Positions 22,684 through 25,619 of a stretch of 64,000 nucleotides of DNA are shown piece by piece (position 1 is the stretch's first letter; each line of letters opens with the position of its first letter). The translations under genes and the position numbers were made by a program. The stretch is from a virus (lineage: Duplodnaviria; Caudoviricetes), in the IMG/VR virus record IMGVR_UViG_3300020577_006545, positions 1 to 64,000 of that record. The stretch is one strand, 5' to 3'. The notes beneath the pieces were generated by a model. The model was not told the origin of the DNA. It did no database searches and was given only the letters and a program-made list of their open reading frames with translations.

Positions 22684-23385
22684 TTATAATTCATTTTGTT
22701 TTTTAAAGTCATTAAATCCTTTATAATCAAAAAATTTCCATTTTCTTTGGATAGTAGTTCTTGAGATTTTTAATATTTTTGATAAATCTTTTTCCATTAA
22801 ATTTGGGTTTTCTTTTAATATTTTTAATATCTCTTTTTCAGTAACATCCAAATATGTTGAAGAATAGTATTTCTTCCCAATTTTTTTAAGCCTTAAATCT
22901 TTTATATTTTTATATCCAAAACTCTTTATTCTTCTTCTAAGCGTATTGGTTCCTACATTTAAAGATTTTGCTAATTGCTCTTCGGTTAAATTTGAATTTT
23001 TTGAGAGTAATTTTGTGATGTCGTCTTCCAATATTTCTTTAATATTTTTTTTATTCATTTCAATTAAAAAATTTTTAGAAAATTGATATCCACGAGAATT
23101 ACTATATCTATTTTGATTTTTATTTTTACTTGTATTCATTCTTAAAAACGCAAAGGACATTCTGCGTTTATTTATACCGTTTGTAAATTTTGTTAATAAC
23201 CAATGTGACACATAATGCTCTCTTGCAGAGAGCGTCACCAAATTTTCTTTTTTATTTGTCCCACCTAGACTTTTAGGGATTATATGATGTTTTTCAAAAT
23301 ACTTATTTTGAAAAACATTTCTTTTAAGGGCATTATCTATAATTTTATTATACCAATTATAATATTTATTTTCAATAAAATACAT
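22684..23385 (-). CDS. HNH homing endonuclease with C-terminal HTH repeats
   Basis: EKHHIIPKSLGG..NLVTLSAREHYVSHWLL; two HTH-like segments. Confidence 0.88.
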   Translation of the reverse strand: MYFIENKYYNWYNKIIDNALKRNVFQNKYFEKHHIIPKSLGGTNKKENLVTLSAREHYVSHWLLTKFTNGINKRRMSFAFLRMNTSKNKNQNRYSNSRGYQFSKNFLIEMNKKNIKEILEDDITKLLSKNSNLTEEQLAKSLNVGTNTLRRRIKSFGYKNIKDLRLKKIGKKYYSSTYLDVTEKEILKILKENPNLMEKDLSKILKISRTTIQRKWKFFDYKGFNDFKKQNEL

Positions 23386-23424
23386 TGTAATAATATCTTG
23401 TGTAAAAATTAAAATTTTGCCTAG

Positions 23425-23580
23425 TTAAAGTTCTTTATTGAATTCTCTAGGCAAAATTTCCCACCCGTCATTGAACTTACAAAGAGGGCAATTTTCTTCT
23501 TGTTGCCACTCTTCGTAAGTGTAGTGATGGTCGCATTCTGGACAGACCAGAGTTTTTGTATCTCTAATCTTATCCGTCAT
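23425..23580 (-). CDS. Small zinc-ribbon protein coupled to Ro60 (not in ORF track)
   Basis: MTDKIRDTKTLVCPECDHHY..ENCPLCKFNDGW.. 51 aa; ATG 1 nt after the Ro60 stop. Confidence 0.7.
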   Translation of the reverse strand: MTDKIRDTKTLVCPECDHHYTYEEWQQEENCPLCKFNDGWEILPREFNKEL

Positions 23581-23581
23581 A

Positions 23582-25048
23582 CTAAATCTCTACTTGATGA
23601 ACTGCATTCAACAGTGCTTCTTTGTCTTGCTCAAGAAGTTTCATTACATCAAAAATCTTTTCACTGAAACCAGCAAGTGCGAACACTTTGTTTTCAGGAA
23701 ATTGAAGACTTCCATAACCTTGCAAGTCAAAACTATAGATGTAAGGGTCGCTTCCAACCGATTTCTTATAGTTCTGGAAAGATGCATCTGGTCTGTTACT
23801 TCTGTAACCACCTGTCACCCACGCTTGCATGTCTGACAAGACAATAATTCTGTCAAACTTCAATTTCTTTTCTGTAATCTTATCAAAGATACAGTTGAAG
23901 TTCGTTCCCCCACCGTGAAAACCAATTGCGTCTACAATTGATTTGAGGCTGTTGCCAGCGTCAATTCTTTTGATAGTTGCACTGTCGTCAAATGTTAGAA
24001 CAACAGAAGTATCTGGATTTCTCTTGTGAATAGCGGCGGCAAATAGAGAACCAATTTCACTTGGCTTTCCACTCATTGAACCTGAAACATCAAGAGCGAT
24101 TAAAGTTTCACCTTCAAGTTCTGGAACATTGTTCACAGAAATATCAAGTGCTTTACTCAATGCGTTCAAAACTTTTTTTGAAAGTTTCACATCTGCATCA
24201 TAAACTTTTTCAATCTCTTTGATTGCTGTCATAAATCTAAATGGTAGAATTAAGGATTTCTTAATTGCTACTTCATTAGTTAATTGACGGCAAGCCTCAT
24301 CAACCATTTCTGGTGCTTGAGTAATTATGTTTCTCAGGTTTCTAAGAAGAGCGAATATACCAAGTTTTTTAGTCTCAAGCAATTCTTTCCAAGCCTTACC
24401 TTTCAGTTCGGCTACTTCTTCTTCACCTTCTGCTTTACCAGCCTCACTCAACATTGCTTCCCAAGTATCAACATTCTTGAGTTTTCCAGACATTAAGTCT
24501 TTGAACACTTGAACATTTTTTTCACTTGGCTTTGGGTGAATGAGGTTGAAAGCATCAACCATTCCAAGTTCTTTTCCAGAACCAGCGTATTTAGCAAGTT
24601 GATAACCATCAAACTTGTTCAACGCTCTTGCCAAACCATCTTTCAATGAATTTGGAAGTGGCTTACCATACTTATTCATGTAATAAGCGAGAATTTCAGT
24701 AATATCGTCTGCACGATACACAACCTTTTCATAGAAAGGTCTTGTCCATTGCTCACCTTTTACTTGTTTTGCAATCTCACCTGCTACTGCGTGTGTGATT
24801 GAGCGCATACCAAACTGTGTTCTTGCAAACACTGCGGCCTTTGCCGCAAATTTCTTGTCTTTCAACTGTGAAATTAGTTGTGAAACTTTCTCAAGAGTTT
24901 CGTTAGAACCTCTATAAAATTGTTCACCTGCGAATGAAGTCAAGAGAATAGAAATTAATTCCAACTCTGCACTTTCTTGATGCGCGTCGCCACCAGCATA
25001 GTTTTGTATTGCTGGTGCCTTTTGTCTCGTTTTGTTAAACTTTGACAT
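23582..25048 (-). CDS. rsr: Ro60 / TROVE-domain RNA-binding protein with vWA domain
   Basis: NYAGG.A, RTQFGMRS, LPNSLKDGLARA..KFDGYQLAKY, ALLRNLRNI, LPFRFMTA, vWA DVSGSM MIDAS, IVLSDMQ. Confidence 0.95.
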   Translation of the reverse strand: MSKFNKTRQKAPAIQNYAGGDAHQESAELELISILLTSFAGEQFYRGSNETLEKVSQLISQLKDKKFAAKAAVFARTQFGMRSITHAVAGEIAKQVKGEQWTRPFYEKVVYRADDITEILAYYMNKYGKPLPNSLKDGLARALNKFDGYQLAKYAGSGKELGMVDAFNLIHPKPSEKNVQVFKDLMSGKLKNVDTWEAMLSEAGKAEGEEEVAELKGKAWKELLETKKLGIFALLRNLRNIITQAPEMVDEACRQLTNEVAIKKSLILPFRFMTAIKEIEKVYDADVKLSKKVLNALSKALDISVNNVPELEGETLIALDVSGSMSGKPSEIGSLFAAAIHKRNPDTSVVLTFDDSATIKRIDAGNSLKSIVDAIGFHGGGTNFNCIFDKITEKKLKFDRIIVLSDMQAWVTGGYRSNRPDASFQNYKKSVGSDPYIYSFDLQGYGSLQFPENKVFALAGFSEKIFDVMKLLEQDKEALLNAVHQVEI

Positions 25049-25095
25049 ATCTTACCTCCAGTTCCCTTTCGGGACAAATTAGAACAAATAATAAT

Positions 25096-25159
25096 GTGGA
25101 GAAAACCAAGAAGGGGGTTTTTCTATTAATGGTTGAAGTATCCCTTCTTTCACTACCAC
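25096..25159 (-). ncRNA. Y RNA-like copy 4 (minimal, 64 nt)
   Basis: GUGGUAGUGAAAGAAGGGAUACUUCAA...CCCCUUCUUGGUUUUCUCCAC; ends pair; shares motif with other copies. Confidence 0.75.
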
Positions 25160-25176
25160 TTTTATTAGTGCAAAAT

Positions 25177-25267
25177 ACGGAGAAAATCTATAAGAGAATT
25201 TTTTAAGGAGTTGAACCTTAAACCATTATGAGTGGTTTAACCGAAGTATCTCTTATATTACTGCCGT
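25177..25267 (-). ncRNA. Y RNA-like copy 3 (91 nt) with anticodon-arm + T-arm insert
   Basis: Same terminal stem; insert AAACCA-CUCAUAA-UGGUUU then AAGG-UUCAACU-CCUU. Confidence 0.75.
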
Positions 25268-25293
25268 TTTATTTAGTACATTCACAAACTAAT

Positions 25294-25420
25294 GCGGAGA
25301 AAATTGTAAAGGAAATTTTTTAGGCGCTCTACCAACTGAGCTACATACCTTTCGGTATGACAGGACTTGAACCTGCGACTTCCCGCTTAATAGGCGATGA
25401 AATCCTTTACTTACTACCGT
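25294..25420 (-). ncRNA. YrlA-like Y RNA copy 2 (127 nt) with permuted tRNA domain
   Basis: T arm GCAGG-UUCAAGU-CCUGU, acceptor closed by GAAA (CAUACC/GGUAUG), D arm GCUC-AGUUGGUA-GAGC, inside a Ro-type terminal stem. Confidence 0.85.
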
Positions 25421-25436
25421 CTTTAATTAGTGCATT

Positions 25437-25500
25437 GCGAAGAAAAACGAGAAGAGAGTTTTTTTTCACCAAATTGAAGTAACCCTTCTCTTACTGTCGC
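25437..25500 (-). ncRNA. Y RNA-like copy 1 (minimal, 64 nt)
   Basis: GCGACAGUAAGAGAAGGGUUACUUCAA...CUCUCUUCUCGUUUUUCUUCGC; begins 7 nt after the -10 box. Confidence 0.75.
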
Positions 25501-25507
25501 AATTATT

Positions 25508-25536
25508 ATCTTACCCCATATGTAAGAATGCGTCAA
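25508..25536 (-). promoter_or_regulatory. sigma70 promoter of the Y RNA-Ro60 operon
   Basis: TTGACG-17-TAAGAT, +1 predicted at or near 25500. Confidence 0.8.
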
Positions 25537-25590: not shown

Positions 25591-25619
25591 TTGACGAGAA
25601 ATCAAAAAGCCCTTATAAT
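25591..25619 (+). promoter_or_regulatory. Divergent sigma70 promoter
   Basis: TTGACG-17-TATAAT. Confidence 0.8.

What the first reader, a model, noticed from the sequence alone, without database searches (positions are those of the whole stretch)
23582..25536. Phage Ro60 operon led by an array of four Y-RNA-like genes
Seen: one sigma70 promoter (TTGACG-17-TAAGAT) starts at the first of four units (64, 127, 91, 64 nt). All share paired ends: 5' G/C-G-G/A-Y-AGU(A/G)A...GA/GU-U(A)-Y-UUC and 3' ...UUUUCU(C/U)C(G/A)Y. Short spacers carry a conserved UG(C/U)ACUAA(U/A)(U/A)AAA just before units 2-4, suggesting processing from one precursor that continues through a GAAA hairpin and GGAGG into Ro60. 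Established: Ro60/Rsr binds Y RNAs; YrlA mimics tRNA; Ro60-Y RNA pairs occur in some phages. Unusual: four structurally different RNAs on a common Ro-binding stem, placed 5' of rsr, with no rtcB/rtcA in view and a small zinc-ribbon partner gene.
Basis: partly seen in the sequence, partly recalled or inferred. Interest (0 to 1): 0.8.

Follow-up and report, generated by a model that had tools for sequence, protein, structure and literature searches.

The report
Jumbo-phage Ro60 with four Y RNAs
A large phage carries the gene for the ring-shaped RNA-binding protein Ro60 behind four small RNA genes that share one conserved "handle" but differ inside (one is a rearranged tRNA look-alike). The same layout recurs in over a hundred related phage fragments and in Bacteroidota bacteria, so it is a real, widespread, unannotated branch of the known Ro60/Y-RNA system.

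Summary
On the minus strand, a sigma70-like promoter is followed by four structured RNA units (about 70, 133, 97 and 70 nt), a GAAA-capped hairpin, a GGAGG ribosome-binding site, a 488-aa Ro60 (TROVE + vWA) gene, a 51-aa zinc-ribbon ORF and a terminator-like hairpin.

All four units share a two-helix handle: P1, 1-nt bulge, AG:CU, asymmetric loop U(G/A)A versus UUUU, P2, then (U/A)UACUUC.
- A covariance model of the handle finds 239 copies beside Ro60 homologues in about 120 phage and metagenome loci, every one on the Ro60 strand. Covariation is heavy.
- Unit 2, left out of a second model's seed, scores 102 bits as a YrlA-type permuted tRNA mimic with V, T, acceptor-like and D arms.

These are therefore Y RNAs of a divergent YrlA/YrlB lineage. 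The handle carries AGURA instead of the canonical CGAA, and every copy falls below Rfam's YrlA threshold. I also found related arrays downstream of chromosomal rsr in Bacteroidota isolates.

The zinc-ribbon "partner" is not conserved in any related locus. No RtcB was found in the 87-kb record. Arrays upstream of rsr have published precedents.

Earlier notes of this scan describe similar handle-bearing arrays on other DNA.

Verdict: real, and a new variant of a known kind.

The parts
25508..25536 (-). sigma70-like promoter: TTGACG, 17-nt spacer, TAAGAT. The -10 ends 4 nt before the U1 model start.
   Evidence: 9 of 12 matches, not above shuffles alone. The closest relative L087 keeps TTGACA-17-TAAGAT with a diverged spacer. 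The same 4-5 nt gap to the first unit is seen in L098, L067, L121 and L015.
25434..25503 (-). U1: short handle-only Y RNA (YrlB-like), core 25437-25500.
   Evidence: R1 73.2 bits. 93% identical to the L087 orthologue, versus 75.5% for the Ro60 coding sequence.
25422..25433 (-). Spacer motif GCACTAATTAAA, 5' of U2.
25291..25423 (-). U2: YrlA-type Y RNA. Handle plus permuted tRNA-like domain: V hairpin with 7-nt loop CUAUUAA, T arm, GAAA-capped acceptor-like stem, D arm.
   Evidence: R2 102.1 bits, E 4e-22, with U2 not in the seed. Rfam YrlA 44.8 bits, E 1.3e-8, below GA 69. Fold z-score -2.9. Compensatory changes against L087.
25268..25279 (-). Spacer motif GTACTAAATAAA, 5' of U3.
25174..25270 (-). 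U3: handle plus two hairpins, one with anticodon-like 7-nt loop CUCAUAA and one T-arm-like (loop UUCAACU).
   Evidence: R1 51.0 bits, not in the seed. R2 51.4 bits. Fold z-score -2.6. Loop kept and stems compensated in L087.
25160..25171 (-). Spacer motif GCACTAATAAAA, 5' of U4.
25093..25162 (-). U4: short handle-only Y RNA, core 25096-25159.
   Evidence: R1 72.3 bits. P1 and P2 changes against L087 are compensatory.
25055..25074 (-). Leader: 4-bp GAAA-capped hairpin (25063-25074), then GGAGG (25055-25059), 6 nt before the ATG.
   Evidence: Identical in L087. Not seen in more distant loci.
23582..25048 (-). Ro60/Rsr homologue, 488 aa: TROVE ring plus vWA domain with DxSGS at residues 320-324.
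   Evidence: Pfam TROVE 63.2 bits, vWA_Ro60 25.3 bits. PDB 9KOP/9L5Y phiLo Ro60 E 9e-22, X. laevis Ro60 E 3e-7. Invariant D320, S322, S324 in A1.
23425..23580 (-). 51-aa CxxC...CxxC zinc-ribbon ORF, starting 1 nt after the Ro60 stop. Co-transcribed, but specific to this lineage.
   Evidence: Pfam zinc-finger match E 1e-6. No tblastn hit in about 120 related loci.
23403..23460 (-). Terminator-like hairpin (14-bp stem) overlapping the zinc-ribbon stop codon, followed by a U-rich tail. Probable operon end.
   Evidence: -18.2 kcal/mol, z-score -4.65, 0 of 200 shuffles as stable.

Best explanation
This is a phage Ro60/Y-RNA ribonucleoprotein operon.

Proposed mechanism:
1. One sigma70-type promoter starts transcription at the 5' end of U1. 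The transcript runs through U1-U4 into the Ro60 and zinc-ribbon genes and ends at the hairpin after the zinc-ribbon stop (inferred).
2. Host RNases release four discrete RNAs, each closed by its own terminal stem. The Ro60 mRNA is left with a GAAA-capped 5' hairpin (inferred).
3. Each RNA carries the same two-helix handle: P1, bulge, AG:CU, U(G/A)A/UUUU internal loop, P2, UACUUC. This is the lineage's version of the YrlA Ro60-binding stem and docks on the outer surface of the Ro60 ring. The inference rests on homology and on strict linkage with Ro60.
4. The variable interior of each RNA is an adaptor module. U2 holds a complete permuted tRNA mimic. U3 holds an anticodon-arm-like plus a T-arm-like hairpin. 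U1 and U4 hold only a short A-rich loop.
5. By analogy with D. radiodurans and Salmonella Rsr and with phage phiLo Ro60, the RNPs probably tether Ro60 to host enzymes. Candidates are PNPase and, for the tRNA-like module, tRNA-recognising enzymes. This would remodel or degrade structured RNA during infection (inferred).

The host is probably a member of the Bacteroidota (inferred).
For: Shown here:
- Ro60 identity.
- The handle has 18 pairs, 13 with compensatory changes, in 36 short units aligned by MAFFT.
- 239 R1 hits at E<=1e-3 in about 120 Ro60 loci, all on the Ro60 strand. Of the best 150, 145 lie upstream of Ro60.
- 94.5% of cells are paired, against 65% when shuffled and 44-60% when slid.
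- In the long units all six helices (P1, P2, V, T, acceptor-like, D) are supported on a MAFFT alignment: 95.9% paired against 67.8% shuffled.
- U2, outside the seed, scores 102.1 bits. Rfam YrlA gives E 1.3e-8.
- No other copy exists in the 87-kb record.
- The L087 orthologues keep the structures through compensatory changes. U1 is more conserved (93%) than the Ro60 coding sequence (75.5%).
- The promoter hexamers are conserved across a diverged spacer.
- Only 44 nt separate U4 from the ATG, which leaves no room for a separate Ro60 promoter.
- A terminator-like hairpin follows the zinc-ribbon ORF.
- Handle variants grade into the published motif: GYCGUA in Bacteroidota rsr loci, GGUGUA in Xanthomonas phage 10KY502B, GGCGAAG in Microcystis phage Mvi-JY20.

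From the literature:
- YrlA/YrlB lie within 4 kb of Ro60 and on the same strand. M. smegmatis YrlA and YrlB come from one precursor upstream of rsr. A conserved YUAY begins the V loop (PMC4201824).
- phiLo Ro60 binds two upstream Yrl RNAs and host PNPase (PMC12135203).
Against: - There are no expression or binding data.
- The literal Ro-binding motif GNCGAAN0-1G is absent; AGURA stands in its place.
- Rfam YrlA is below the gathering score (44.8 against 69).
- U2's P1 stem has only 3 bp plus an A-C mismatch, and R1 alone does not detect U2.
- The promoter matches only 9 of 12 positions.
- The conserved motif 5' of U2-U4 could be an internal promoter rather than a processing site.
- Alignments A3 and A6 are fitted to the models. 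Many loci are related or duplicated, which inflates cell counts.
- PNPase tethering is purely by analogy.
- phiLo's own Yrl RNAs do not match this handle.
Confidence: 0.8

Rival explanations
1. Each unit is its own transcription unit. The motif TG(C/T)ACTAA(W), 5-7 nt before U2, U3 and U4, would be an extended -10-like internal promoter, so the array is not processed from one precursor.
For: The motif sits immediately 5' of three units and nowhere else in the window. In L087 a similar motif still precedes the U2 and U4 orthologues although ORFs have been inserted in front of them. TGn plus ACTAAT lies 5-6 nt before the stems of U2 and U4.
Against: ACTAAT/ACTAAA lacks the conserved A at position 2, and in U3 also the T at position 6, of a -10 box. 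No -35 is present. The motif is not conserved in the wider clade, where flanks are merely A/U-rich. Spacers of 10-25 nt are typical of processed arrays. Published precedent exists for polycistronic Y RNAs (PMC4201824).
Confidence: 0.2
2. The handles act mainly in cis. Ro60 binds the unprocessed leader of its own mRNA and autoregulates its translation or stability. Free Y RNAs would be by-products.
For: U4 ends 44 nt before the Ro60 ATG. In most related loci the last unit ends 5-80 nt before the start codon.
Against: Units are discrete closed modules. Arrays lie downstream of Ro60 in L051, L053, L064 and in Bacteroidota chromosomes. In L087, ORFs separate units from Ro60. Known Y RNAs act in trans.
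Confidence: 0.08
3. The array is a decayed tRNA gene cluster (pseudo-tRNAs) with no link to Ro60.
For: T-arm and D-arm sequences in U2 match real tRNAs (blastn hit to a phage tRNA-Ser). Related loci carry tRNA arrays next to the units.
Against: ARAGORN finds no tRNA. The Rfam tRNA model gives 21.6 bits, below 29. U1 and U4 have no tRNA part. The handle covaries and is strictly linked to Ro60 by strand and position.
Confidence: 0.02

Closest known systems
Bacterial Rsr (Ro60) with YrlA/YrlB Y RNAs: Salmonella, M. smegmatis, 254 bacteria and 22 phages (Chen et al. 2014, PMC4201824; Rfam RF02553)
   Same: Same strand as Ro60 and within 4 kb. Terminal stem, asymmetric internal loop and second stem. 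U2 has V, T, acceptor-like and D arms in the YrlA order. A YUAY-type element (UUAC) follows P2. A short YrlB-like partner RNA is present. In M. smegmatis both RNAs lie upstream of rsr on one precursor.
   Different: AGURA replaces GNCGAAN0-1G. UACUUC is near-invariant even in handle-only units. The clade has four units here and up to six elsewhere. The V arm has an anticodon-loop signature. All copies score below Rfam's gathering threshold. No rtcBA was found nearby.
Thermus phage phiLo Ro60 with Yrl1/Yrl2 (PMC12135203; PDB 9KOP, 9L5Y)
   Same: Best solved relative of the protein (E 9e-22). Phage-encoded. The RNAs lie upstream of Ro60. Binding to Ro60 and to host PNPase was shown experimentally there.
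   Different: The phiLo Yrl RNAs were defined by CGAA motifs and do not match R1 or R2. There are two RNAs rather than four, and no tRNA-like module is described.
D. radiodurans Yrn1/Yrn2 and RNAs a-e upstream of rsr; the Ro60-Y RNA-PNPase (RYPER) machine
   Same: Several small RNAs encoded upstream of rsr, some polycistronic. T-arm-like elements. The Y RNA acts as a tether between Ro60 and an exoribonuclease.
   Different: No sequence relation to this handle was tested here. The tRNA-like parts are arranged differently (PMC4201824). It is a cellular, stress-induced system.
Chromosomal rsr loci of Bacteroidota isolates (Rapidithrix, Pedobacter, Chryseobacterium, Flavobacterium, Emticicia, Chryseolinea), found here
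   Same: Ro60 32-36% identical. Arrays of 2-5 R2-positive long units at 50-90 bits. Same handle architecture with GUUACUUCG.
   Different: The arrays lie downstream of rsr. The handle reads GY-CGUA / GCCUNUU-RC, closer to the canonical CGAA. Fewer short units were detected by R1.

Membership tests
Y RNA of the YrlA/YrlB type (Rfam RF02553; Chen et al. 2014) | Encoded within about 4 kb of a Ro60/TROVE gene and on the same strand | tested here: met
   U1-U4 lie 45-455 nt upstream of Ro60 on the same strand. All 239 R1 hits in related loci are on the Ro60 strand.
Y RNA of the YrlA/YrlB type (Rfam RF02553; Chen et al. 2014) | 5' and 3' ends pair into a stem with an internal loop or bulge, which forms the Ro60 binding site | tested here: met
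   P1, bulge, internal loop and P2 are supported by covariation.
Y RNA of the YrlA/YrlB type (Rfam RF02553; Chen et al. 2014) | Literal 5'-strand motif GNCGAAN0-1G | tested here: not met
   The units read G-Y-AG-U(G/A)A. Graded intermediates exist: GYCGUA in Bacteroidota and GGCGAAG in Microcystis phage Mvi-JY20.
Y RNA of the YrlA/YrlB type (Rfam RF02553; Chen et al. 2014) | At least one RNA per locus with a tRNA-like domain (T arm, acceptor-like stem, D arm, often a V arm) | tested here: met
   U2: Rfam YrlA alignment, R2 102.1 bits full length, helices supported in A5.
Y RNA of the YrlA/YrlB type (Rfam RF02553; Chen et al. 2014) | Score at or above the Rfam gathering threshold (69 bits) | tested here: not met
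   44.8 bits. Relatives score 33-56 bits.
Y RNA of the YrlA/YrlB type (Rfam RF02553; Chen et al. 2014) | Physical association with Ro60 (the functional definition of a Y RNA) | not testable with these tools
   Needs RIP or EMSA.
Ro60/Rsr (TROVE ring + vWA) | TROVE domain above the Pfam cut-off | tested here: met
   63.2 bits against a cut-off of 23.
Ro60/Rsr (TROVE ring + vWA) | C-terminal vWA domain with a MIDAS DxSxS motif | tested here: inconclusive
   vWA_Ro60 25.3 bits, below the 27.7 cut-off. D320-x-S322-G-S324 is invariant in the clade alignment. No structural model was made.
Ro60/Rsr (TROVE ring + vWA) | Full-length similarity to a solved Ro60 | tested here: met
   9KOP/9L5Y E 9e-22 over residues 14-481; 1YVP E 3e-7; 2NVO E 2e-4.
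rsr-yrlBA-rtcBA RNA-repair operon | RtcB/RtcA encoded next to rsr | tested here: not met
   No RtcB and no RNA_ligase domain in the 87-kb record. No conserved neighbour gene in the clade. The record is only 36% complete.
tRNA gene | Cloverleaf recognised by tRNA finders | tested here: not met
   ARAGORN finds 0 genes. Rfam tRNA 21.6 bits, below 29. No tRNA in the record.

The most novel reading that the evidence does not exclude
The shared handle may be a docking tag that loads interchangeable cargo onto phage Ro60, and the cargo of the long units may be a full tRNA mimic whose V arm copies an anticodon arm.

In 52 of 72 long units the V loop has 7 nt, with U33 in 50, R37 in 49 and A38 in 49, but 24 different 'anticodons' (GUU, GCU, UGU, UUG, UAU, GAU and others). 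Here the loops carry AUU in U2 and CAU in U3.

The RNP could then act as a decoy or sensor for host tRNA-targeting defence nucleases. Alternatively it could deliver cleaved tRNAs to PNPase. On that reading the arrays are a diversifying anti-defence repertoire.
Probability: 0.12. Interest if true: 0.85.

Novelty: new variant of a known kind. Interest (0 to 1): 0.55.

Why it matters
Ro60/Y-RNA particles are conserved from bacteria to humans, yet their function is still poorly defined. This locus belongs to a large lineage, in jumbo and huge phages and their probable Bacteroidota hosts, that the curated Rfam model does not annotate. In it, one sharply conserved handle carries modular interiors in arrays of up to six.

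That gives three things to work with:
- A clean sequence definition of a Ro60-docking element to test: AG:CU, the U(G/A)A/UUUU loop and UACUUC.
- Natural "cargo swap" series that can show what the variable module recruits.
- Cultured entry points, namely Xanthomonas phages of the 10KY502B/Usme group, Arthrobacter phage Atuin, and Chryseobacterium, Pedobacter and Flavobacterium isolates.

It also flags probable mis-annotation, since a "tRNA-Thr" in the Xanthomonas phage lies inside a Y RNA match.

Tried and rejected
- Rfam at gathering thresholds over the whole window gave no hit. ARAGORN found no tRNA or tmRNA.
- Zinc-ribbon ORF as a Ro60 partner: no homologue in about 120 related loci. Rejected as a conserved partner.
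- Any conserved neighbour gene: the best non-Ro60 cluster occurs in 17 of 107 loci. Neighbours are RNR, methylases and RecA, not RNA-repair genes.
- RtcB and RNA ligase in the record: none.
- Spacer motif as a general phage promoter: exact copies occur only in the array, and hits at 1 mismatch are not enriched. Flanks across the clade are only A/U-rich.
- Pairing of AGURA with UUACU (5 bp possible): AGCGA and AGCAA variants keep UUACU, so there is no covariation. Not supported.
- R1 alone does not detect U2 (5.5 bits). This was resolved with R2.
- phiLo Yrl RNAs sharing this handle: no significant R1 or R2 hit upstream of phiLo Ro60. No R1 or R2 hits beside the Ro60 genes of Vibrio phiTY18, HGTV-1 or RsoM2USA.
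- Literature: three searches found no description of multi-unit handle arrays in jumbo or huge phages. The 2020 Annual Review (PMC10870794) and the Chen 2014 supplements were not available.
Full report
**What is in the sequence**

Everything below is on the minus strand.
- A sigma70-like promoter: TTGACG at 25536-25531, 17 nt, TAAGAT at 25513-25508.
- Four RNA units. Cores are U1 25437-25500, U2 25294-25420, U3 25177-25267 and U4 25096-25159. With the full terminal stem they are about 70, 133, 97 and 70 nt.
- A 4-bp GAAA-capped hairpin at 25063-25074, then GGAGG at 25055-25059.
- A 488-aa ORF at 23582-25048.
- A 51-aa CxxC...CxxC ORF that starts 1 nt after that ORF's stop codon (23425-23580).
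- A 14-bp hairpin with a U-rich tail that overlaps the small ORF's stop codon (z-score -4.65).

An HNH + HTH ORF with its own strong promoter follows. The large ORF is a Ro60:
- Pfam TROVE 63.2 bits and a sub-threshold vWA_Ro60 match.
- Full-length similarity to the crystal structure of Thermus phage phiLo Ro60, E 9e-22.
- DxSGS invariant in the clade alignment.

The record is an 87-kb IMG/VR virus fragment, 36% complete by CheckV. It also encodes ribonucleotide reductase, DNA polymerase, primase and many glycosyltransferases. It is therefore a piece of a jumbo phage.

**The shared module**

All four units have the same handle:
- a terminal stem P1 of 4-7 bp;
- a 1-nt bulge;
- two pairs AG:CU;
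- an asymmetric internal loop, U(G/A)A on the 5' side and NN-UUUU on the 3' side;
- a second stem P2 of 8-9 bp;
- then (U/A)UACUUC. In U2 this element is UUUCAUC.

MFE folds of U2, U3 and U4 reproduce this shape. The combined 5' motif has three exact hits in 64 kb, all in the array.

**Comparative test**

Ro60 homologues at 40-75% identity were collected from viral contigs, metagenomes and one named record, the 634-kb uncultured phage LR745206.1. Contigs reach 483 kb.
- By eye, the same handle precedes Ro60 in L001-L004.
- A MAFFT alignment of 36 short units gives an RNAalifold consensus of 18 pairs. Thirteen have compensatory changes, and P1 positions are never broken.
- The covariance model R1 finds U1 (73.2 bits), U4 (72.3) and U3 (51.0, not in the seed). 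It finds nothing else in the window or the 87-kb record.
- Over about 120 loci R1 finds 170 + 69 hits at E<=1e-3, every one on the Ro60 strand.
- Of the best 150 hits in a de-duplicated set, 145 lie upstream of Ro60.
- Lengths are bimodal, at 60-80 and 120-140 nt. Arrays hold 1-6 units; these counts are lower bounds.
- On those 150 hits, 94.5% of cells pair, against 65% after shuffling and 44-60% after sliding. This alignment is model-fitted and the loci are related, so the MAFFT result is the cleaner evidence.

**Unit 2**

R1 misses U2. Its P1 has 3 bp plus an A-C mismatch, and its UACUUC element has diverged.

I therefore aligned 17 long units from other loci with MAFFT. Six helices are supported: P1, P2, V, T, acceptor-like and D. 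Pairing is 95.9%, against 67.8% shuffled and 41-51% slid.

Model R2 was built from that alignment. It scores U2 at 102.1 bits (E 4e-22, full length) and its L087 orthologue at 84.9 bits. Rfam's YrlA model also hits U2, at 44.8 bits and E 1.3e-8, below its gathering score of 69.

The order is V hairpin, T arm, capped acceptor-like stem, then D arm. This is the YrlA arrangement described by Chen et al. 2014 (PMC4201824, section 6). Their conserved YUAY at the start of the V region corresponds to UUAC here.

**Closest relative**

L087 has a Ro60 that is 75% identical at the amino-acid level.
- It keeps the promoter hexamers (TTGACA-17-TAAGAT) across a diverged spacer. It also keeps the GAAA hairpin and the Shine-Dalgarno sequence, and it has orthologues of all four units.
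- The order differs: U1, U3, an inserted HNH ORF, U2, a 76-aa ORF, U4.
- Unit identities are 93% (U1), 79% (U3), 74% (U4) and 65% (U2), against 75.5% for the coding sequence. Stem differences are compensatory.
- The motif 5' of the units, GYACTAAWWAAA in the window, is recognisable 5' of the L087 units even behind the inserted ORFs. It is not conserved in the wider clade.

The motif is therefore either a lineage-specific processing signal or an internal promoter. I cannot tell which.

**Promoter**

The promoter alone is not significant (9 of 12). Three observations support it:
- its conservation in L087;
- the recurrence of TTGACA-type promoters whose -10 ends 4-10 nt before the first unit, in 11 of 77 loci against 2% of control windows;
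- the lack of space for a separate Ro60 promoter.

Together these support co-transcription from U1 onward.

**Relation to the canonical Ro-binding site**

The literal GNCGAAN0-1G motif (PMC4201824) is absent. The same architecture with intermediate sequences occurs elsewhere:
- GY-CGUA with GUUACUUCG in the chromosomal rsr loci of Bacteroidota isolates;
- GG-UGUA in Xanthomonas phage 10KY502B;
- GGCGAAG plus GGUUACUUCA in Microcystis phage Mvi-JY20.

The window's AGURA handle is thus a diverged form of the YrlA binding stem, not an unrelated element. All of these relatives score 33-56 bits with Rfam YrlA, below the gathering score.

**Wider distribution**

R2 finds 72 long units in 100 loci. 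It also finds:
- three units in the 43-kb Xanthomonas phage, one of them annotated as tRNA-Thr;
- three units downstream of the Ro-like gene of Arthrobacter phage Atuin;
- arrays of 2-5 units downstream of rsr in Rapidithrix, Pedobacter, Chryseobacterium, Flavobacterium, Emticicia, Chryseolinea and others.

The nearest Ro60 proteins in genome assemblies (44-53% identity) sit on MAG contigs labelled mostly Bacteroidota. Chromosomal Bacteroidota Rsr follows at 32-36%. This suggests a Bacteroidota host, with the caveat that MAG binning may be wrong.

There are no R1 or R2 hits beside the Ro60 genes of phiLo, Vibrio phiTY18, HGTV-1 or RsoM2USA.

**What does not hold**

- The zinc-ribbon ORF has no homologue in any related locus, and no other neighbour is conserved. 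It is co-transcribed here but is not a family partner.
- RtcB and RNA ligase are absent from the record. The record is incomplete.
- Arrays upstream of rsr and polycistronic Y RNAs are already published (PMC4201824, PMC12135203).

**Mechanism**

Shown:
- four structured, covarying RNA genes with a common handle;
- strict linkage to Ro60;
- a YrlA-type tRNA mimic in U2.

Inferred:
- transcription from one promoter;
- RNase processing into four RNAs;
- docking of the handle on Ro60;
- variable interiors acting as adaptors to host enzymes, namely PNPase by analogy with D. radiodurans and phiLo, and tRNA enzymes for U2.

**A further observation**

The V arm of the long units has an anticodon-loop signature. 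In 52 of 72 units the loop is 7 nt, with U33 in 50, purine 37 in 49 and A38 in 49, yet 24 different central triplets. U3 carries CUCAUAA beside a T arm, and this is conserved in L087. This is compatible with a tRNA-decoy or tRNA-sensor role, but nothing here tests it.

**Prior art**

Searches of the held literature found four relevant items:
- Ro60/TROVE noted in jumbo phages (PMC7824862);
- YrlA-like RNAs in 22 phages (PMC4201824);
- the phiLo Yrl1/Yrl2 study (PMC12135203);
- no description of this handle or of multi-unit arrays in jumbo phages.

Earlier notes of this scan describe similar handle-bearing arrays beside Ro60-like genes on other DNA. Within the scan this is therefore a recurrent finding.

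**Verdict**

The locus is real and well supported. It is a new variant of the known Ro60/Y-RNA kind, of moderate interest.

Noticed in passing
window 25291-25423 and 25174-25270; alignment A6: The V hairpin of long units looks like an anticodon arm. It has a 5-bp stem, whose 5' strand is the UUC of UACUUC, and a 7-nt loop. U33 occurs in 50 of 52, R37 in 49 of 52 and A38 in 49 of 52, with 24 different middle triplets. The window has CUAUUAA (U2) and CUCAUAA (U3).
   Followed up: partly
L141:2203-2336 (Xanthomonas phage 10KY502B, OQ622092.1): An annotated 'tRNA-Thr' (L141:2208-2275) lies inside a 106.5-bit R2 match. Two more unannotated long units precede it, upstream of the Ro60-like ORF. This is probably a Y RNA mis-called as a tRNA, in a cultured 43-kb phage.
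   Followed up: partly
L136:2138-2268 and 2284-2415 (phage csAssE-Sib): Annotated tRNA-Tyr and tRNA-Lys just upstream of the 'Ro sixty-related protein' gene lie inside weak R2 matches (34 and 33 bits). A 61-bit unit precedes them. It is unclear whether these are tRNAs or Y RNAs.
   Followed up: no
L175, L179, L182, L197, L201, L222 (Bacteroidota isolates): Chromosomal rsr genes are followed, not preceded, by arrays of 2-5 YrlA-like units at 50-90 bits with R2. All are below the Rfam YrlA gathering score.
   Followed up: partly
L087:678-1289 and window 22684-23385: HNH endonuclease ORFs move around this operon. One sits inside the array, between the U3 and U2 orthologues, in L087. Another (HNH + HTH, own 11-of-12 promoter) sits after the terminator in the window. 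The U2/U3 order is swapped between the two phages.
   Followed up: partly
L135:3016-3081 (Thermus phage phiLo): A weak R1 match (11 bits, E 0.09) lies directly downstream of phiLo Ro60. It has a terminal stem, a 9-10 bp second stem and GGGUACUUC, and it overlaps the start of annotated CDS phiLo_25. It may be an overlooked handle-type RNA or a chance match.
   Followed up: no
L009:2019-2093; also L015, L059, L086, L089: Bona fide tRNA genes adjoin or interleave the Y RNA arrays. In L009 a tRNA sits between two long units. This fits shared transcription and processing.
   Followed up: no
window 25476-25495 and alignment A2: AGU(G/A)A could pair with UUACU over 5 bp, which would exclude P2. Variants AGCGA and AGCAA keep UUACU, so there is no covariation. 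Conservation is more likely due to protein contacts.
   Followed up: yes
handle motif, alignment A2 columns 20-30: The 11-nt stretch gGUUACUUCAa has U, C, C at positions 3, 6 and 9, and often A at position 10. These are among the positions reported as near-invariant in the 11-nt motif of Dictyostelium Class I RNAs (PMC7919456). Those RNAs also have a terminal stem next to the motif. The lead comes from an earlier scan note. The resemblance is short and untested.
   Followed up: partly
window 25591-25619 (+): A divergent 11-of-12 promoter, TTGACG-17-TATAAT, faces the neighbouring plus-strand gene across an A/T-rich tract shared with the array promoter.
   Followed up: no
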